From sequence record NC_001332.1: DNA of 6,744 bases; one strand, given 5' to 3'. How positions within the stretch are numbered: position 1 is the first letter of the stretch; the number at the start of each line of letters is the position of its first letter. Origin of the DNA: Lineavirus I22. A program made the position numbers and the translations under genes. Shown piece by piece: positions 2,274 through 6,744 of the stretch. Under the pieces are notes generated by a model. The model was not told where the DNA came from and made no database searches. It saw only the letters and a program-made list of their open reading frames with translations.

Positions 2274-2278
2274 GGGTG

Positions 2279-2305
2279 CGGGGTAGGTGCGTTAGCCCTG
2301 CCCCG
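2279..2305 (+). other. GC-rich hairpin just after the gene IV stop; candidate packaging (morphogenetic) signal or part of it
   Basis: 5' arm CGGGGTAGG (2279-2287) pairs with 3' arm CCTGCCCCG (2297-2305): 9 bp including one G-T wobble, 9-nt loop. No T-run follows, so not a classic intrinsic terminator. In Ff the packaging hairpin sits at this position. Confidence 0.4.
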
Positions 2306-2353
2306 TATCCTCACAGCGTCCCCTGACCCGTATCATTCGCTTATCGCCGTATG
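2295..2353 (+). repeat. Iteron-like direct repeats CCCTG(C/A)CCCGTATC with a third partial copy GCCGTATG
   Basis: GCCCTGCCCCGTATCC (2295-2310) and CCCCTGACCCGTATCA (2320-2335) are 25 nt apart with one mismatch in the 14-nt core. CCGTAT recurs at 2347-2352 and ACGTAT at 2380-2385. Confidence 0.4.
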
Positions 2354-2596
2354 TGCTTCCCTGTCTTGTCCCTAAGGCTACGTATTGCCTCCCCGTTTAA
2401 ATCGTCAAGCTATAAATCGTGGGGGCCCCATCGCCCTGTTAAGCTGCCTTTTTTCCTGCGATCCTCCCGCCTCTCTGTTGTCTGACGGTCGCAGACGAAC
2501 AGGACGTTACAGCCATTGTTTTTCGTTCTGCTGGCTTCTTTTTTTGGGGGGTGTACTCTTGTTGCAAAATCGCAACGCAGCGGGGGTTAAATCATG

Positions 2597-2672
2597 CTGC
2601 ACGAAAGTCTCACTTTCGGGATTTTGGTTTTTGGATTTCTGCTGCGGAGTCAGGCGGGGCGGGGTGAACGTG
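2597..2672 (+). other. Nested inverted-repeat structure in a G-tract-rich segment; candidate ssDNA origin element (minus-strand priming site)
   Basis: CTGCACG (2597-2603) is complementary to CGTGCAG (2666-2672). Inner hairpin CGAAAGT-ctc-ACTTTCG (2602-2618). G-tracts at 2545-2550, 2582-2586 and 2655-2664. Functional assignment is inference. Confidence 0.3.
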
Positions 2673-2743
2673 CAGTGTATGTAATACTGCAACGTTTGTC
2701 TCAATCTGATACCTCTCTACTAAACGCCTCCTTTCTTTTTAAG

Positions 2744-2754
2744 CTCTTTAATCA
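2744..2754 (+). promoter_or_regulatory. Candidate plus-strand origin nick-site core (CTCTTTAATCA)
   Basis: Resembles the Ff pII nicking region TTCTTTAAT^AGTGG as I recall it (9 of 11 identical), in a T-rich context upstream of gene II. Hypothesis only. Confidence 0.25.
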
Positions 2755-3002
2755 TTTTCTTTTCTGCTAATTCTGTATAGTTTTCAATGACATAGTTTAA
2801 GTGAATCTGTCCATGTGACCTGTACGCCCGTACTTGTACTAATCCTGATCGCAGTATCACTCAGGTTTTTCTTTTTCTCGGTGGTGATACTGGCTGTTGT
2901 CCTAACTGGTTTTTTCATTTTATGCCTTTGAAAAATATAAAGTTTCTACCGAAAATAGGTTTTTAAGCGTAATCTTATTGTCAATAGATGTAAAAATTTT
3001 TG

Positions 3003-3030
3003 TTGCGCACGTTATTTTTCACGCTATCAT
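3003..3030 (+). promoter_or_regulatory. Candidate sigma70 promoter for gene II
   Basis: TTGCGC (3003-3008), 16-nt spacer, TATCAT (3025-3030), about 60 nt upstream of the gene II start in an AT-rich region. Imperfect hexamers. Confidence 0.3.
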
Positions 3031-3052
3031 GCCTGCATTGGATTTCATCTTG

Positions 3053-3070
3053 ATACGTGTATACACGTAT
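3053..3070. promoter_or_regulatory. 18-bp perfect palindrome ATACGTGTATACACGTAT in the gene II leader; candidate operator or RNA hairpin
   Basis: Self-complementary by inspection (core ACGTGTATACACGT, 3055-3068). Ends 9 nt before the SD (AGGG, 3080-3083) of gene II. Confidence 0.4.
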
Positions 3071-3090
3071 ACATCACTAAGGGAATGCGT

Positions 3091-4125
3091 ATGATTGATT
3101 GGGTTACAGCCGTCTTGCCTTGTCTGCATGTGCCTGTTGATGCTGGTCGCGTCCTCTCTGTTGCGCCGGATGGCTCTGTAGAATGGGAATCAGTAAAGTT
3201 TTCCCGCGTTACTGGCTCCTTTCAAAGCTCCATCAGTGTACGTTCGCAGGGTTCTGACGGTAATGGGAAAGCCACTCATTTATACGTTGATGGTAACCCG
3301 TCAAAGTGGTTGCAGGGTCATAATATCGTTGGAAGCGACGATCTCAACGGCCTTATGATTGCTTTTTACGCTCGTATGTTGTCACTACTCAATATACCTC
3401 ACCATCTAGAATCGTATCGTCAGGTGCTTTCTGGTCAGTACGAGCTAAAGCGCGTTGACATTAACTACATGTTTGAGCTTCCTACGCTCATTGATGTACG
3501 GTCATGGTTACATGCTGCTGAGTTCAAGGCTAAGACTCGTCACGGGCGCCCGGCAACTGCAAAGGGCACTCTGTACTTTGGTAAAAATTCTCGCCGTTGG
3601 TCTATTAAGGCTTACAGCAAATATGATGAAGTAAATTGCGGGAAAAAAGCTCATGGCGTTCCCGAAGAAATTAAGAAAACTGGCCTTGTTGAATGGTCTA
3701 AAAATAAATTACGTCTAGAATTAACATTACGCGCATTGCAGCTTACTGATATTAATTTAAACTTTGCTAAAAACTGGTCTACTGAAACTGCATATACTGT
3801 TTTTAAAGAATATATGGGGCGTATCGAAATGAGCGGAAATACTTTACTTACTGATACTCAAGTTATTAATTTACCGTCTGCGCTACGTATGACTTATGTG
3901 TGCTGGAAACAGGGCATTTGTGTAACAGATATGGTATCTCGCGCCACTTATTTTCGTCACCGCAAGGTTTTAAAAGAATTTGGTATTGATATTGCTGTTA
4001 CTGTTGATCGTGTTGATAATAGCAACGTTGTTCCGTTAATCCGTGTCTTAGAGGCTAAACCTGCTTCTATTCCTTCTCAATATGATAATTTAATATTTTC
4101 ATCTAATCGTGTATCAAGTTTCTAA
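3091..4125 (+). CDS. II: Gene II protein (rolling-circle replication initiator/nickase), divergent and shorter than Ff pII
   Basis: 344 aa from ATG 3091 (MIDWV..., compare Ff pII MIDMLV...). SD AGGG at 3080-3083 is 7 nt upstream; the ORF-track ATG at 3085 has no spacer. By-eye motif matches to Ff pII: SKWLQGHNIVGSDDL vs AKVLQGHNVFGTTDL, and NVVPLIRV vs NVVPLVRF near the C-terminus. The rest is poorly conserved; Ff pII is about 410 aa. Confidence 0.8.
   Translation: MIDWVTAVLPCLHVPVDAGRVLSVAPDGSVEWESVKFSRVTGSFQSSISVRSQGSDGNGKATHLYVDGNPSKWLQGHNIVGSDDLNGLMIAFYARMLSLLNIPHHLESYRQVLSGQYELKRVDINYMFELPTLIDVRSWLHAAEFKAKTRHGRPATAKGTLYFGKNSRRWSIKAYSKYDEVNCGKKAHGVPEEIKKTGLVEWSKNKLRLELTLRALQLTDINLNFAKNWSTETAYTVFKEYMGRIEMSGNTLLTDTQVINLPSALRMTYVCWKQGICVTDMVSRATYFRHRKVLKEFGIDIAVTVDRVDNSNVVPLIRVLEAKPASIPSQYDNLIFSSNRVSSF
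3829..4125 (+). CDS. X: pX, in-frame internal start within gene II (C-terminal domain product)
   Basis: In-frame ATGs at 3814 and 3829 (YMGRIEMSGN...) align with the Ff pX start (FEGDSMNIYDD). ATG 3829 has GGGG 7-12 nt upstream; 3814 is the alternative. By analogy only. Confidence 0.4.
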   Translation: MSGNTLLTDTQVINLPSALRMTYVCWKQGICVTDMVSRATYFRHRKVLKEFGIDIAVTVDRVDNSNVVPLIRVLEAKPASIPSQYDNLIFSSNRVSSF

Positions 4126-4135
4126 GGGGTTTTAA

Positions 4136-4462
4136 ATGCACTCAGGTATTCTTATTCGTGGTCGTATTCTCGGTTCTCGCACTGCAAACCGTGATAATAA
4201 TTCGCCGCAACATATTTTAGGCGTTGGCATTCAGAAAGCTGACGGTTTTGGCGGTACGACTCAGGATGTTGAGCAGGTTAAAATTCCTGACCAGCTTGTG
4301 CAAAGCGGCGTTGTTAATCAGATTAATTCGCTTATTGGCAAACTTTGCGAAGTACCGATTAATGTTCGTTCTTGGTCTATGAACGGCAAAAACGGCACTT
4401 CTTACACTCTGTCTTTTGAGTCCGGTATTCAGGAGATTGAAGAGCTGATTTATGTCAGATGA
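4136..4462 (+). CDS. Gene-V-position protein, putative ssDNA-binding protein; no recognisable similarity to Ff/IKe pV
   Basis: 108-aa ORF with SD AAGGGG (4124-4129) about 6 nt before the ATG, immediately after gene II and overlapping the gene VII start. Function inferred from synteny only; the sequence does not resemble Ff pV as I recall it. Confidence 0.6.
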   Translation: MHSGILIRGRILGSRTANRDNNSPQHILGVGIQKADGFGGTTQDVEQVKIPDQLVQSGVVNQINSLIGKLCEVPINVRSWSMNGKNGTSYTLSFESGIQEIEELIYVR

Positions 4463-4541
4463 ACTAATTCACGTAGTAATAGCTCTCGGCCTCGTTATTT
4501 CCTTCGGTTTGGGTGCTATTACTGCTGGGGTACTCCGATGA
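4452..4541 (+). CDS. VII: pVII-like minor coat protein
   Basis: 29-aa hydrophobic peptide MSDELIHVVIALGLVISFGLGAITAGVLR, comparable to Ff pVII. Start overlaps the gene V-position ORF stop by 11 nt; stop TGA overlaps the gene IX ATG (ATGA). Confidence 0.6.
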   Translation: MSDELIHVVIALGLVISFGLGAITAGVLR

Positions 4542-4639
4542 TTGACTATGTTGGTTTATTCATTGGCGCTTATATAATGGGCTTCGCCCTTTTCTATGGC
4601 ATAGGATTCTTTAAATCCATTGCTGAACGCATCGTTTAA
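4538..4639 (+). CDS. IX: pIX-like minor coat protein
   Basis: 33-aa hydrophobic peptide MIDYVGLFIGAYIMGFALFYGIGFFKSIAERIV, sitting between VII and VIII as in Ff. GGGG 6-9 nt upstream as SD. Confidence 0.6.
   Translation: MIDYVGLFIGAYIMGFALFYGIGFFKSIAERIV
4551..4578 (+). promoter_or_regulatory. Candidate sigma70 promoter for gene VIII, inside gene IX
   Basis: TTGGTT (4551-4556), 16-nt spacer, perfect TATAAT (4573-4578), about 75 nt upstream of the gene VIII ATG. Ff has a strong gene VIII promoter in the equivalent position. Confidence 0.4.
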
Positions 4640-4652
4640 TTAAGGAATACAC

Positions 4653-4907
4653 ATGAGCGTTATTACTAAAGTTGCTGCTGCTAAAAACAAAATCGTTGTT
4701 GGTGCTGGCCTGCTGATGGCTTCTGCTGGCGCGTTCGCTGCTGATGACGGTACTTCTACCGCTACCAGCTACGCTACTGAAGCAATGAACAGCCTGAAAA
4801 CTCAGGCAACTGATCTCATTGATCAGACGTGGCCTGTTGTAACTAGCGTTGCCGTTGCTGGTCTGGCAATTCGTCTTTTCAAGAAATTCTCTTCTAAAGC
4901 TGTTTAA
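4653..4907 (+). CDS. VIII: pVIII major coat protein precursor
   Basis: 84 aa. Signal peptide ending AFA, then an acidic N-terminus (ADDGTS), hydrophobic core and basic C-terminus. NYATEAM.SLKTQA.DLI.QTWPVV...AGL.IRLFKKFSSKAV is close to IKe/Ff pVIII as recalled. SD TAAGGAA at 4640-4646. Confidence 0.95.
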   Translation: MSVITKVAAAKNKIVVGAGLLMASAGAFAADDGTSTATSYATEAMNSLKTQATDLIDQTWPVVTSVAVAGLAIRLFKKFSSKAV

Positions 4908-4923
4908 TATTCAGCGTTTTCAA

Positions 4924-4949
4924 GGGGCGCTATTGCGCCCTTTTTTTTT
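4924..4949 (+). terminator. Rho-independent terminator after gene VIII
   Basis: GC stem GGGGCGC (4924-4930), loop TATT, GCGCCC (4935-4940), then nine T (4941-4949). Same position as the central terminator of Ff. Confidence 0.85.
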
Positions 4950-4974
4950 ACTTTAATTCAGCTAAGGTGTAATT

Positions 4975-6279
4975 GTGAAAAGAAAAATAATAGCAATTTC
5001 TTTATTTTTATACATCCCTTTGTCTAATGCTGATAATTGGGAGTCTATTACTAAAAGCTATTATACTGGCTTTGCCATGTCTAAAACTGTTGAATCAAAA
5101 GATCAGGATGGTAAAACAGTTCGTAAAGAGGTTATAACTCAGGCTGATTTAACTACCGCCTGTAATGATGCTAAAGCCTCCGCGCAAGATGTTTTTAATC
5201 AAATGAAGCTAACATTTTCTGGTATATGGCCTGATTCTCAGTTTCGCCTTGTAACTGGTGATACCTGCGTTTATAACGGTTCGCCTAGTGAAAAAACTGA
5301 AAGTTGGTCTATTCGCGCTCAGGTTGAGGGTGATATGCAACGTTCTGTACCAGATGAAGAACCTTCTGAACAAACGCCAGAAGAAATCTGTGAAGCAAAA
5401 CCTCCTATTGATGGCGTCTTTAATAACGTCTCTAAGGGTGACGAAGGAGGCTTTTATATTAATTATAATGGCTGCGAATATGAGGCAACTGGCGTCACTG
5501 TTTGCCAGAATGATGGAACTGTCTGTGCCTCCTCCGCTTGGAAGCCAACTGGTTACGTTCCCGAATCTGGAGAATCTTCCTCCTCTCCTGTGAAAGATGG
5601 TGACACTGGCGGTACTGGTGAAGGTGGTTCTGATACTGGCGGTGATACTGGTGGCGGTGATACTGGTGGTGGTTCTACTGGCGGCGATACTGGCGGTTCT
5701 ACTGGTGGCGGTTCTACTGGTGGCGGTTCTACTGGTGGATCAACTGGTAAATCACTGACAAAGGAAGATGTAACCGCAGCAATACATGATGCTTCCCCTT
5801 CTATTGGTGATGCTGTTAAAGATTCCCTTACAGAAGATAATGACCAGAACGACAATCAGAAGAAAGCAGATGAACAATCAGCTAAAGCCTCTGCTTCTGT
5901 ATCTGATGCTATCTCTGATGGTATGCGTGGCGTTGGTAATTTCGTTGACGATCTTGGCGGTGAGTCGTCGCAATACGGAATCGGTAATTCTGAAATGGAT
6001 CTCTCCGTTAGCCTGGCTAAAGGGCAACTTGGAATTGATCTTGAAGGTCATGGTTCAGCTTGGGAATCCTTTTTAAATGACGGTGCTTTACGTCCCTCCA
6101 TTCCTTCTGGTCATGGCTGTACTGATTTTGTCATGTTTCAGGGTTCTGTTTATCAGCTTGATATTGGCTGCGATAAATTAGGCGATATTAAGTCTGTATT
6201 ATCTTGGGTTATGTATTGCCTTACCTTCTGGTATGTATTCCAGTCTGCTACTTCATTACTTCGTAAAGGTGAACAATAA
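4975..6279 (+). CDS. III: pIII minor coat / adsorption protein
   Basis: 434 aa with GTG start (Ff gene III also starts with GTG). Signal peptide [19 protein letters not shown], Cys-containing N-terminal receptor-binding domains, Gly/Ser/Thr/Asp-rich linker, hydrophobic C-terminal anchor ([15 protein letters not shown]). Stop TAA overlaps the gene VI ATG (TAATG). Confidence 0.9.
5599..5748 (+). repeat. Imperfect tandem 15-nt repeats encoding the glycine-rich pIII linker
   Basis: Repeated GGTGGCGGTTCTACT-like units encoding [50 protein letters not shown]. Confidence 0.85.
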
Positions 6280-6629
6280 TGCCAGCTTTATTAGGTATTC
6301 CGGCTTTAATTCGTTTCATAATGGGGCTTGTGCCTCTTGCTATTGGTTATTTTGCTAAGTTCTTAGGCAAAATTATTACCCGTAATGGCTTGATGGCTGC
6401 TGCCTTGATTGGTGCGATCCTTTCATTTGTCACCTTTGCAATTCAGCTTTTAGGCGATGCTTTATCTTCTGCAATGGGCGGAATGCCTGCTGATTTTGGA
6501 AATTTAATGTCCTCTGTATTACCTGATGGTACAACAACTTGTATTACAGTAATTATAGACTACCAGATAGCGGTCTTTGTTTTCGATATTAAAGATCGCT
6601 TACTCGGCATTGCCAATAAGGTAATTTGA
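6279..6629 (+). CDS. VI: pVI minor coat protein
   Basis: 116-aa hydrophobic protein. N-terminus [13 protein letters not shown] matches Ff pVI MPVLLGIPLLLRF; C-terminal [11 protein letters not shown] matches AAIFIFDVKQK. Confidence 0.9.
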
Positions 6630-6630
6630 T

Positions 6631-6744
6631 ATGGCTGTTTATGTTGTTACCGGAAAATTAGGCGCAGGCAAGACGCTTGTAGCTGTATCGCGTATACAAA
6701 GGACTTTAGCTAAAGGTGGTATTGTTGCCACCAATCTAAATTTA
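6631..6744 (+). CDS. I: Gene I protein (pI), N-terminal 38 codons; continues at window position 1
   Basis: MAVYVVTGKLGAGKTLVAVSRIQ... contains the Walker A P-loop GKLGAGKT and matches the Ff pI N-terminus (MAVYFVTGKLGSGKTLVSV). Frame (6631+114=6745) joins frame 1 of the window start exactly. Confidence 0.9.
   Translation, partial: MAVYVVTGKLGAGKTLVAVSRIQRTLAKGGIVATNLNL

What the first reader, a model, noticed from the sequence alone, without database searches (positions are those of the whole stretch)
3091..4125. Compact gene II protein retaining only motif islands of the Ff initiator
At 344 aa this initiator is much shorter than Ff pII, yet it keeps a WLQGHNIVG motif and a C-terminal NVVPLIRV motif plus an apparent internal pX-type start. 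The N-terminal region and the interdomain segments look unrelated. It may be a minimal or plasmid-type member of the pII (CRI) rolling-circle initiator family, useful for defining the catalytic core.
Basis: partly seen in the sequence, partly recalled or inferred. Interest (0 to 1): 0.5.

Follow-up and report, generated by a model that had tools for sequence, protein, structure and literature searches.

The report
Phage I2-2 gene II replication initiator
This ORF is the already catalogued gene II rolling-circle replication initiator of filamentous phage I2-2: a full-length, normal-sized member of the pII/X family, not a stripped-down version, and it sits next to its cognate nick-site origin.

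Summary
The window is the 6744-nt genome of filamentous phage I2-2. ORF 3091-4125 is an exact match to UniProt P15419 (gene II product). The internal product from Met247 (nt 3829) is an exact match to the annotated gene X protein.

Pfam Phage_CRI matches at E=5e-78 over profile positions 1-231 of 232, G2P_X_C at E=2e-20, and TIGR01629 rep_II_X at E=4e-120, end to end. Homology to Ff pII is colinear, not confined to "islands". The 66-aa length difference is about eight loop insertions in Ff/IKe. A length of 344 aa is the family norm (median 347 in the best 120 homologues), so "compact" is wrong.

"Plasmid-type" is partly right. Reps of 1.8-2.8 kb cryptic plasmids are 37-40% identical, against about 20% for Ff/IKe. 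However, the module also carries gene X and a PF17426 gene V, as other inoviruses do.

I located the probable plus-strand origin at 2670-2712. It is a covarying nick hairpin with a T^AATA loop, then TTTGT, then a second palindrome. It is present in 12 of 12 related replicons and in 32 of 32 motif-bearing viral contigs that carry the rep gene.

The protein is already known and the interest is low.

The parts
3091..4125 (+). Gene II: 344-aa rolling-circle replication initiator (pII) of phage I2-2. N-terminal catalytic domain aa 1-231 (Phage_CRI); C-terminal domain aa 253-332 (G2P_X_C).
   Evidence: Exact match to CAA32521/NP_039615/UniProt P15419. PF05144 E=5e-78, PF05155 E=2e-20. TIGR01629 E=4e-120. 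phrog_702 E=1e-94.
3079..3084 (+). Shine-Dalgarno-like AAGGGA for gene II, 6 nt upstream of ATG 3091. It directly abuts the alternative ATG at 3085.
   Evidence: Read from the sequence. TAAGGGA is also present upstream of rep in L003 and L004.
3307..3333 (+). WLQGHNIVG motif (aa 73-81). P70, K72, Q75, G76, H77 and G81 are invariant across the I2-2 clade, the plasmid Rep, IKe and M13.
   Evidence: Alignment A1 of 107 sequences.
3451..3459 (+). R121-V-D123: the RxD motif (Rep_trans motif I equivalent) on predicted strand 118-129. D123 is invariant.
   Evidence: Motif definition from PMC5714925.
3613..3630 (+). Y175-S-K177-Y-D-E180: the YxKxxE motif. Tyr175 (TAC, 3613-3615) is the predicted catalytic tyrosine and aligns with Ff pII Tyr197.
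   Evidence: Y175, K177 and E180 are invariant in A1 and map to M13 Y197, K199 and E202. [quoted passage not shown]
3709..3720 (+). L207-R208-L-E210: the xRxE motif (Rep_trans motif IV equivalent) on predicted strand 206-214. R208 and E210 are invariant.
3829..4125 (+). Gene X: 98-aa in-frame C-terminal product from Met247. It corresponds to the G2P_X_C domain of pII, predicted to be a small helical HTH-like domain plus the conserved SNVVPLIRVLEA tail.
3816..3819 (+). G-rich SD-like run (GGGG) 9 nt upstream of the gene X ATG.
   Evidence: A G-rich run lies 9-10 nt upstream of the aligned ATG in I2-2-like, UPphi-type and Pseudomonas phage rep genes, with a weaker GGA in one plasmid. M13 has GAGGGGG closer to its ATG.
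4024..4047 (+). NVVPLIRV motif (aa 312-319) in the C-terminal tail shared by pII and pX. It is nearly invariant in the family. Its function is unknown.
   Evidence: The segment just before it (307-315) has low model confidence.
2670..2693 (+). Predicted plus-strand origin nick hairpin. Arms GTGCAGT (2670-2676) and ACTGCA(A)C (2686-2693); loop GTATGTAAT (2677-2685). Predicted nick between T2682 and A2683, by alignment with the Ff nick T5780^A5781.
   Evidence: Present on the rep strand in 12 of 12 related replicons with four different stem sequences. 95% of cells paired, 5 of 7 pairs with double changes, 0 of 500 shuffles reach the covariation score. 32 of 32 viral contigs with the motif carry the rep gene downstream on the same strand. 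Unique in the window, 0 of 200 shuffles. T^AATA is invariant in the alignment with the M13 and IKe origins.
2695..2712 (+). TTTGT linker plus second palindrome (GTCTCA atc TGAtAC, 2698-2712): the predicted initiator-binding and specificity site, analogous to the Ff gpII-binding repeat and to pT181 ICRIII.
   Evidence: TTTGT is invariant. The palindrome arms covary between replicons (GTCTCA/TGAGAC, GTACCA/TGGTAC, GTGCCA/TGGCAC, GTCTA/TAGAC), and the palindrome type tracks the Rep sub-clade. Same layout as Ff and IKe and pT181 (PMC4797284).
2720..2918 (-). Reverse-strand small ORF between the origin and gene II. It is conserved and intact (60-66 aa) in relatives, and is split in this sequence by a 1-nt insertion near 2800. 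It occupies the position where related phages carry a divergently transcribed regulator.
   Evidence: Fold unresolved.
4136..4462 (+). Gene V (108 aa, PF17426 Putative_G5P): the last gene of the replication module. It is unrelated in sequence to Ff pV.
   Evidence: Exact match to P15417. PF17426 E=4e-25. No BLASTP alignment with M13 pV. It travels with the rep gene in L004 and L006. The module boundary is at 4454-4465.

Best explanation
The ORF is gene II of the IncI2-pilus-specific filamentous phage I2-2. It encodes the plus-strand rolling-circle replication initiator.

Shown here:
- It is a full-length member of the pII/X (Phage_CRI + G2P_X_C; TIGR01629) family.
- It is colinear with Ff and IKe pII at about 20% identity.
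- It is of normal family length.

Inferred mechanism:
- The N-terminal domain (aa 1-231) adopts the crescent-shaped, TBP-like Rep_trans fold. It carries the motifs RxD (121-123), TxYxG (160-164), YxKxxE (175-180) and xRxE (208-210).
- On the supercoiled replicative form, pII binds the palindrome at 2698-2712, probably through its C-terminal HTH-like domain.
- It then cleaves the plus strand in the loop of the adjacent hairpin, predicted between T2682 and A2683. The reaction is metal-dependent and leaves Tyr175 joined to the 5' phosphate. The 3'-OH primes host polymerase, and a second cleavage and ligation at the regenerated origin releases a circular single strand.
- Gene X (Met247 to the end) makes the C-terminal domain alone. 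By analogy with Ff pX, it would modulate pII and single-strand accumulation together with the PF17426 gene V protein.

The whole block 2598-4454 (origin, small reverse ORF, gene II/X, gene V) is a replication module that is exchanged among inoviruses. Here it is joined to an IKe-like structural module.
For: Identity: exact matches to P15419, NP_039616 and P15417 on a 6744-nt contig.

Family: PF05144 E=5e-78 (profile 1-231 of 232), PF05155 E=2e-20; TIGR01629 E=4e-120, profile 1-407 of 407; phrog_702.

Colinearity and invariants: P70, K72, Q75, G76, H77, G81, D123, Y175, K177, E180, R208 and E210 are invariant across 107 sequences that include M13, IKe and pTA144. Y175 aligns with M13 Y197, the residue that forms the covalent link.

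Origin: the element is conserved in 12 of 12 replicons, with compensatory stem changes. 32 of 32 motif-bearing viral contigs carry the rep gene on the same strand, 395-1417 nt downstream of the motif. T^AATA and TTGT are invariant in the alignment with the M13 and IKe origins.

Module: IKe DNA homology covers only 4465-6741 and 1-2303. L004 shares only 2598-4454, and its structural genes are different.
Against: The nick position, the catalytic role of Tyr175, the metal ligands and the binding of the C-terminal domain to the second palindrome are all inferences from alignment and from a predicted structure. I could not obtain the model coordinates, so clustering of the invariant residues around Tyr175 was not measured. 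The I2-2 protein itself does not hit PF02486 in Pfam. PDB sequence searches find no Rep_trans chain, so the Rep_trans link rests on the predicted fold, the shared motifs and weak hits from relatives. The role of the invariant QGHN motif is unexplained. In this sequence the hairpin's right arm has an extra A relative to every relative.
Confidence: 0.9

Rival explanations
1. One reading: a minimal or compact derivative of the Ff initiator that keeps only short catalytic motif islands, with the rest of the protein unrelated.
For: Pairwise identity to M13 pII is only 19.6% and to IKe pII 23%, so by eye only LQGHN, AY.K, R.E and NVVPL stand out. The protein is 66-77 aa shorter than Ff and IKe pII.
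Against: The profiles are matched end to end. The alignment is colinear, and the length difference is explained by eight discrete insertions in Ff/IKe that fall in loops of the model. 340-349 aa is the modal family length.
Confidence: 0.03
2. The replication module was captured directly from a small rolling-circle plasmid. This is the possibility I recall Stassen et al. 1992 raising; I could not read that paper here.
For: Reps of 1.8-2.8 kb cryptic plasmids are 37-40% identical over the full length and have the same origin architecture. There is no DNA homology to IKe across 2304-4464.
Against: The closest relatives (56-94% identity) are all in filamentous phages or prophages. The module includes gene X and a PF17426 gene V-like gene. 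That gene accompanies rep in the phage versions (L004, L006) and was not detected in the small-plasmid ORFs I tested, several of which are co-oriented CopG-type RHH genes instead. L004 shows the same module joined to a different set of inovirus structural genes. An inovirus donor is therefore more parsimonious; plasmids are more distant cousins.
Confidence: 0.15
3. The protein is an HUH-type endonuclease (Rep_1, Rep_2 or phiX174 gpA-like), with the GHN of the LQGHN motif acting as a degenerate HUH metal-binding motif.
For: His77 is invariant in a conserved motif. Many ssDNA phage and plasmid initiators are HUH enzymes.
Confidence: 0.02
4. The resemblance to pII is coincidental and the ORF is not an initiator.
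For: None found.
Against: E-values of 1e-78 to 1e-120 against three independent curated profile libraries. Exact identity to the curated gene II product. Strict co-occurrence with a cognate origin element.
Confidence: 0

Closest known systems
Ff (M13/f1/fd) and IKe gene II protein (pII/gpII), with gene X
   Same: Same family (PF05144 + PF05155, TIGR01629) and same domain order. Shared N-terminal MID, and shared LQGHN, RxD, YxKxxE (Ff Tyr197 = I2-2 Tyr175), RxE and NVVPL motifs. In-frame internal gene X start within three alignment columns. Same origin layout: a nick hairpin with T^AATA, then TTGT, then a second palindrome.
   Different: Only 20-23% identity. Ff and IKe carry about eight loop insertions (+66 and +77 aa). 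No DNA homology. The partner gene V protein belongs to a different family (PF17426) and has no detectable similarity to Ff pV.
pII of UPphi / Ypfphi (CUSphi)-type and other enterobacterial inovirus prophages and replicative forms (L003, L004, L006, L007; P0001-P0026)
   Same: 56-95% identity and the same length (344-350 aa). Same origin element (GTGCAGTGTnnGTAATACTGCAC), a PF17426 gene V downstream, and a divergent small gene upstream. The UPphi paper notes that genes II and V form a separately inherited module (PMC7307601).
   Different: Some of these are dif-integrating prophages with extra accessory genes. The second palindrome and the origin-to-rep spacing differ between sub-clades. In I2-2 the upstream reverse ORF is frameshifted.
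Rep proteins of small cryptic Gram-negative plasmids annotated 'II/X family' (pTA144, pMM1, and Xanthomonas, Acinetobacter, Klebsiella and Vibrio 1.8-2.8 kb plasmids)
   Same: 37-40% identity over 95-99% of the length, similar size, and the internal Met conserved in pTA144. Same origin architecture, with covarying stems.
   Different: No PF17426 gene V-like gene and no phage structural genes. A co-oriented CopG-type RHH gene lies upstream of rep.
Rep_trans initiators (pT181-family RepC/RepD/RepDE; RepSTK1; PF02486)
   Different: 13-15% identity. I2-2 pII does not itself match PF02486. The QGHN motif and the NVVPL tail are specific to Phage_CRI. No gene X equivalent is described for Rep_trans.

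Membership tests
pII/X replication initiators (Pfam Phage_CRI PF05144 + G2P_X_C PF05155; NCBIfam TIGR01629 rep_II_X) | Profile match above the curated threshold, covering the whole model | tested here: met
   PF05144: 262 bits (cut-off 21.7), profile 1-231 of 232. PF05155: 73.7 bits (cut-off 25). TIGR01629: 401 bits (cut-off 29), profile 1-407 of 407.
pII/X replication initiators (Pfam Phage_CRI PF05144 + G2P_X_C PF05155; NCBIfam TIGR01629 rep_II_X) | Catalytic tyrosine equivalent to Ff pII Tyr197 in a conserved YxKxxE context | tested here: met
   Y175, K177 and E180 are invariant in 107 sequences and align with M13 Y197, K199 and E202. The role of Tyr197 is taken from PMC5405960, citing Asano 1999. 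This is sequence-level evidence only.
pII/X replication initiators (Pfam Phage_CRI PF05144 + G2P_X_C PF05155; NCBIfam TIGR01629 rep_II_X) | In-frame internal initiation producing a pX protein identical to the C-terminus | tested here: met
   ATG 3829 gives 98 aa, identical to NP_039616 'gene X product'. The Met is at least 90% conserved. A G-rich SD-like run lies upstream in most relatives examined. phrog_17464 covers exactly this segment. Expression was not tested.
pII/X replication initiators (Pfam Phage_CRI PF05144 + G2P_X_C PF05155; NCBIfam TIGR01629 rep_II_X) | Cognate plus-strand origin on the same strand: a nick hairpin followed by an initiator-binding repeat | tested here: met
   Element at 2670-2712. 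Found in 12 of 12 relatives, with covariation. 32 of 32 motif-bearing contigs carry the rep gene. Aligns with the M13 and IKe origin cores.
pII/X replication initiators (Pfam Phage_CRI PF05144 + G2P_X_C PF05155; NCBIfam TIGR01629 rep_II_X) | Site-specific nicking with covalent 5'-phosphotyrosine attachment, and strand transfer at termination | not testable with these tools
   This needs purified protein and origin DNA.
Rep_trans superfamily (PF02486; pT181 RepC/RepD, RepSTK1) | Pfam PF02486 match above the gathering score | tested here: not met
   I2-2 pII has no PF02486 hit at E<=1. 73 of 107 relatives give weak hits, and only P0043 reaches 29.7 bits against the 29.6 cut-off. I therefore do not file it as a PF02486 member; it is a related family.
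Rep_trans superfamily (PF02486; pT181 RepC/RepD, RepSTK1) | Crescent-shaped, TBP-like beta-sheet catalytic fold | tested here: met
Rep_trans superfamily (PF02486; pT181 RepC/RepD, RepSTK1) | Motifs RxD, T/SxY/ExG, YxKxxE and W/LxRxE | tested here: met
   R121-V-D123, T160-L-Y-F-G164, Y175-S-K-Y-D-E180 and R208-L-E210 (preceded by K-L rather than W/L-x). Motif definitions from PMC5714925.
HUH endonuclease Reps (Rep_1, Rep_2, phiX174 gpA type) | HUH metal-binding motif and HUH fold | tested here: not met
   No HUH-family Pfam hit. No H-hydrophobic-H triplet among the invariant residues. No HUH structure among the top fold matches.
   The median of the best 120 homologues is 347 aa, and 88 of 120 lie in 340-349 aa. 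Both Pfam domains are complete. Ff and IKe are longer through loop insertions.

The most novel reading that the evidence does not exclude
The most novel reading still open has three parts. (1) The element at 2670-2712 is the true plus-strand origin of a very widespread phage and plasmid replicon class. (2) Its second palindrome forms a simple 'specificity code' that co-evolves with the C-terminal (pX) domain of the initiator; GTCTCA/TGAGAC, GTACCA/TGGTAC and GTGCCA/TGGCAC types track Rep sub-clades. (3) The small reverse-strand gene between the origin and gene II is a previously unannotated regulator of this module, which is inactivated, or was mis-sequenced, in the I2-2 reference. None of this changes what the protein is.
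Probability: 0.45. Interest if true: 0.3.

Novelty: already known. Interest (0 to 1): 0.12.

Why it matters
Little is new about the protein itself. It has been in sequence databases as the phage I2-2 gene II product, is a Swiss-Prot entry (P15419), and is covered by Pfam, NCBIfam and PHROG family models.

The useful outcomes are corrective and organisational.
- The "short" form is the family standard and Ff pII is the elaborated form. The about 340-aa proteins are therefore the right template for defining the conserved core: P70, K72, Q75, G76, H77, G81, D123, Y175, K177, E180, R208 and E210.
- A confident predicted structure supports the published conjecture that Phage_CRI initiators share the Rep_trans fold.
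- The origin of this replicon class can be recognised from sequence as a hairpin with GT(A/G)ATA, then TTTGT, then a palindrome. This helps to recognise that many records labelled as 'plasmids' in clinical Enterobacteriaceae assemblies are inovirus replicative forms or tiny pII-type plasmids.

Tried and rejected
1. An Ff-like string CTCTTTAATCAT at about 2745-2756 was my first origin candidate. I rejected it because it lies inside the conserved reverse-strand ORF, has no flanking hairpin, and is not shared by relatives.

2. A mismatch-tolerant k-mer motif search timed out. I replaced it with exact and wildcard k-mer counting, which found the origin.

3. PDB sequence searches with the single protein, with the 107-sequence profile and with P0043 found no related solved structure. 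Only the fold comparison linked the protein to Rep_trans.

4. The I2-2 record (NC_001332) is not in the annotated collections, and the phage collection holds no near-identical genome. Identity was established by exact protein lookup instead.

5. tblastn against the phage collection gave only one hit (Dulem virus 58, 31% identity). Ff and IKe are too distant for tblastn at that database size.

6. The reverse-strand small protein gave no Pfam hit. hhalign against the plasmid CopG-like proteins gave probability 1.5%. The AF2 model shows an extended N-terminus plus two helices, with no significant Foldseek match. An RHH assignment is therefore not supported, and I leave the fold open.

7. The Rfam scan of the window found no family.

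8. The promoter and terminator scan of 2600-3100 was not above shuffled expectation for promoters. Its 'terminator' hit at 2671-2691 is the origin hairpin.

9. Folding of 2274-2660 as a whole was not better than shuffles (z = -0.5). Only the 2274-2310 hairpin is stable in both the MFE and the centroid structure.

11. I did not run the 1.84-billion-protein representative search, because the family assignment and length distribution were already settled.
Full report
**What the window is.** The 6744-base window is a complete, circularly permuted filamentous-phage genome. Its ORFs match the Zot-like pI, the secretin pIV, the major coat protein pVIII, the pIII pilus-binding domain and pVI.

Exact-sequence lookup shows three identities, all on a contig of 6744 nt:
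- The 344-aa product of 3091-4122 is CAA32521/NP_039615/UniProt P15419, "gene II product [Lineavirus I22]".
- The 98-aa product of 3829-4122 is NP_039616, "gene X product".
- The 108-aa product of 4136-4459 is P15417, the gene V product.

The window is therefore phage I2-2. Published work treats I2-2 as a known relative of IKe with accession NC_001332 (PMC7307601). That record is absent from the annotated collections available here.

**Checking the observation.** The coordinates, the length and both motifs are correct. WLQGHNIVG is at aa 73-81 (nt 3307-3333) and NVVPLIRV at aa 312-319 (nt 4024-4047). M13 has VLQGHNVFG and NVVPLVRF at the aligned positions.

The ORF finder extends the frame to an ATG at 3085. 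That codon directly abuts the Shine-Dalgarno sequence AAGGGA (3079-3084). ATG 3091 has the usual spacing, matches the family consensus MIDW, and is the annotated start.

The internal "pX-type start" is the annotated gene X start, Met247 (ATG 3829). The Met is conserved in at least 90% of 107 aligned homologues. It is preceded 9-10 nt upstream by a G-rich SD-like run in I2-2-like, UPphi-type and Pseudomonas phages, with a weaker version in one plasmid. M13 has GAGGGGG closer to its ATG. It lies three alignment columns from M13 Met300.

The claim that the N-terminus and the interdomain segments are unrelated to Ff pII does not hold, as shown next.

**Family membership.** The results are:
- Pfam Phage_CRI: E=5.4e-78, covering profile positions 1-231 of 232 from residue 1.
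- G2P_X_C: E=1.9e-20.
- NCBIfam TIGR01629 "phage/plasmid replication protein, II/X family": E=4.4e-120, covering 1-407 of 407.
- PHROG 702: E=1.4e-94. The 100-position PHROG 17464 matches exactly the gene X segment.

Pairwise BLASTP to M13 pII gives 19.6% identity over 312 columns (E=4e-6) and to IKe pII 23%. The homology is real and colinear, but too weak to see by eye outside the motifs.

In a 107-sequence alignment that includes M13, IKe and a plasmid Rep, the invariant residues are P70, K72, Q75, G76, H77, G81, D123, Y175, K177, E180, R208 and E210.

**Is it compact?** No. Of the best 120 homologues, 88 are 340-349 aa long and the median is 347. The extra 66 aa in M13 (77 in IKe) come from eight discrete insertions, at M13 residues 16-28, 39-42, 60-68, 154-156, 206-211, 220-226, 259-273 and 312-329. 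When mapped onto the predicted I2-2 structure, each falls between secondary-structure elements. Ff and IKe pII are the elaborated forms, and I2-2 pII is the standard one.

**Is it plasmid-type?** Partly. In the plasmid collection, Reps of 1.8-2.8 kb cryptic plasmids are 37-40% identical over 95-99% of the length. These include Moraxella/Psychrobacter pTA144, P. aeruginosa pMM1, and plasmids of Xanthomonas, Acinetobacter, Klebsiella, Vibrio and Aeromonas. That is much closer than Ff or IKe.

The closest relatives, however, are phage-borne:
- A 6814-bp Klebsiella "plasmid p4" is an I2-2-like replicative form, 83-97% nt identity genome-wide.
- A 14.4-kb E. coli "plasmid" is a dimer-like inovirus replicative form. 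It shares only window 2598-4454 (84% nt identity) and has unrelated structural genes.
- The UPphi/Ypfphi-type prophages have pII at 56-58% identity.

IKe DNA homology covers only 4465-6741 and 1-2303. This matches my recollection of the 1992 "module evolution" description of I2-2, which I could not read here.

The exchanged block includes gene X and a PF17426 gene V protein. That protein accompanies rep in the phage versions (L004, L006). It was not detected in the small-plasmid ORFs I tested, several of which are co-oriented CopG-type RHH genes instead. It shows no detectable similarity to M13 pV. I therefore think another inovirus, not a plasmid, was the immediate donor of the module (inference).

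**Catalytic mechanism.** According to PMC5405960, citing Asano et al. 1999, Ff gIIp nicks between T5780 and A5781 and Tyr197 becomes linked to the 5' end. M13 Y197, K199 and E202 align with the invariant I2-2 Y175, K177 and E180.

The Rep_trans motif set defined in the literature is RxD, T/SxY/ExG, YxKxxE and W/LxRxE, and it has been noted to recur in Phage_CRI (PMC5714925, PMC4797284). In I2-2 pII it appears as R121-V-D123, T160-L-Y-F-G164, Y175-S-K-Y-D-E180 and R208-L-E210.

73 of 107 family members weakly match PF02486, and one reaches its gathering score. The I2-2 protein itself does not. I treat Phage_CRI as a sister family of Rep_trans and not as a member of it. No HUH features were found.

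**The cognate origin.** K-mer comparison of the non-coding DNA of 12 related replicons revealed GTGCAGTGTnnGTAATACTGCAC on the rep-coding strand. In I2-2 the element reads GTGCAGT-GTATGTAAT-ACTGCA(A)C at 2670-2693. It is followed by GTTTGT and the palindrome GTCTCA-atc-TGAtAC, ending at 2712.

The three replicons that lack the exact string have the same architecture with different stems. pTA144 has AGGGAG/CTCCCT, and a Pseudomonas phage and a Vibrio plasmid have AGTCGGG/CCCGACT. Xanthomonas has GTGCGG/CCGCAC.

On the 12-sequence alignment, 95.2% of cells pair and 5 of 7 pairs show changes on both sides. The covariation score is 0.558 against 0.141 for shuffles (0 of 500 reach it), and slid-register controls collapse. 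The loop end GT(A/G)ATA and the TTTGT are invariant.

The motif is unique in the window (0 of 200 shuffles). An exact-pattern scan of IMG/VR found 32 contigs, and all 32 carry a rep_II_X homologue on the same strand, 395-1417 nt downstream. In I2-2 the distance is 421 nt. The second palindrome covaries internally, and its type tracks the Rep sub-clade.

When aligned with the M13 and IKe origin cores, T^AATA, TTGT and the CA of the second palindrome are invariant. This predicts the I2-2 nick between T2682 and A2683. The layout is a nick hairpin followed by a specificity repeat. That is also the pT181 ICRII/ICRIII layout.

**Verdict.** The finding is a correct recognition of a pII-family initiator, with a wrong reading of it as a compact relic. 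The protein is already known and curated. The added value here is the demonstration of end-to-end homology, the conserved core, the predicted Rep_trans-like fold, and a sequence-level definition of the origin. Interest is low.

Noticed in passing
window 2720-2918 (minus strand); indel near 2800: A small reverse-strand ORF lies between the origin and gene II. It is intact (60-66 aa) and conserved in L003, L004, L019, L038 and the L007-type phages. In this sequence a single extra base near 2800 splits it into two frames; deleting one base restores a 65-aa ORF (MKKPVRTTASITTEKKK...). It occupies the position where related phages carry a divergent HTH or 'RstR family' repressor. Either this is a sequencing error in the original I2-2 sequence, or the gene is inactivated in I2-2.
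   Followed up: partly
window 2691-2692: The right arm of the origin hairpin reads ACTGCAACG in this sequence. It reads ACTGCACG in every relative, including L038, whose pII is 96% identical. The extra A creates a bulge in the stem. It is either a sequencing error or a real variant.
   Followed up: partly
L004 (NZ_CP098188.1, 14,367 bp) and L003 (NZ_CP132687.1, 6,814 bp): Two records deposited as plasmids are filamentous-phage replicative forms. L003 is an I2-2-like genome from a clinical Klebsiella pneumoniae isolate. L004 is a dimer-like inovirus with the I2-2-type replication module, a different structural module (DUF2523, Zot, GspD), and one frameshifted rep copy. This is a direct example of replication-module shuffling.
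   Followed up: partly
L014-L045 and L006/L007: the second palindrome downstream of the nick hairpin: The palindrome sequence and the origin-to-rep distance split into two classes that track the Rep sub-clade. GTACCAttcgTGGTAC goes with Reps 56-57% identical to I2-2 pII and a 395-398 nt spacing. GTCTCAtt(c/t)cTGAGAC goes with the 56-59% Reps and mostly a 663-672 nt spacing. This suggests co-evolution of the initiator and its binding site.
   Followed up: partly
window 4136-4462: The I2-2 gene V protein belongs to PF17426 (Putative_G5P) and gives no BLASTP alignment at all with M13 pV. The single-strand-binding partner was therefore replaced together with gene II.
   Followed up: yes
window 3053-3070: A perfect 18-bp palindrome, ATACGTGTATACACGTAT, lies immediately upstream of the gene II Shine-Dalgarno sequence and overlaps a weak promoter-like match (3068-3095). 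It is not obviously conserved in L003. It may be an operator or a translational control site.
   Followed up: no
window 2274-2310, 2400-2429 and 2476-2507: A strong hairpin directly follows gene IV, inside the IKe-homologous block, where IKe annotates its morphogenetic signal. Two short patches (30-32 nt, 88-90% identity) match the IKe intergenic region; the first falls within IKe's annotated minus-strand-origin stem-loop. The left boundary of the foreign module may therefore lie nearer 2510-2598 than 2303.
   Followed up: partly
window 4024-4062 (aa 311-328): The C-terminal tail SNVVPLIRVLEAxPAxIP is nearly invariant across phage and plasmid members and is shared by pII and pX. It follows a low-confidence linker in the model. 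Its function is unknown; dimerisation or helicase contact are guesses.
   Followed up: no
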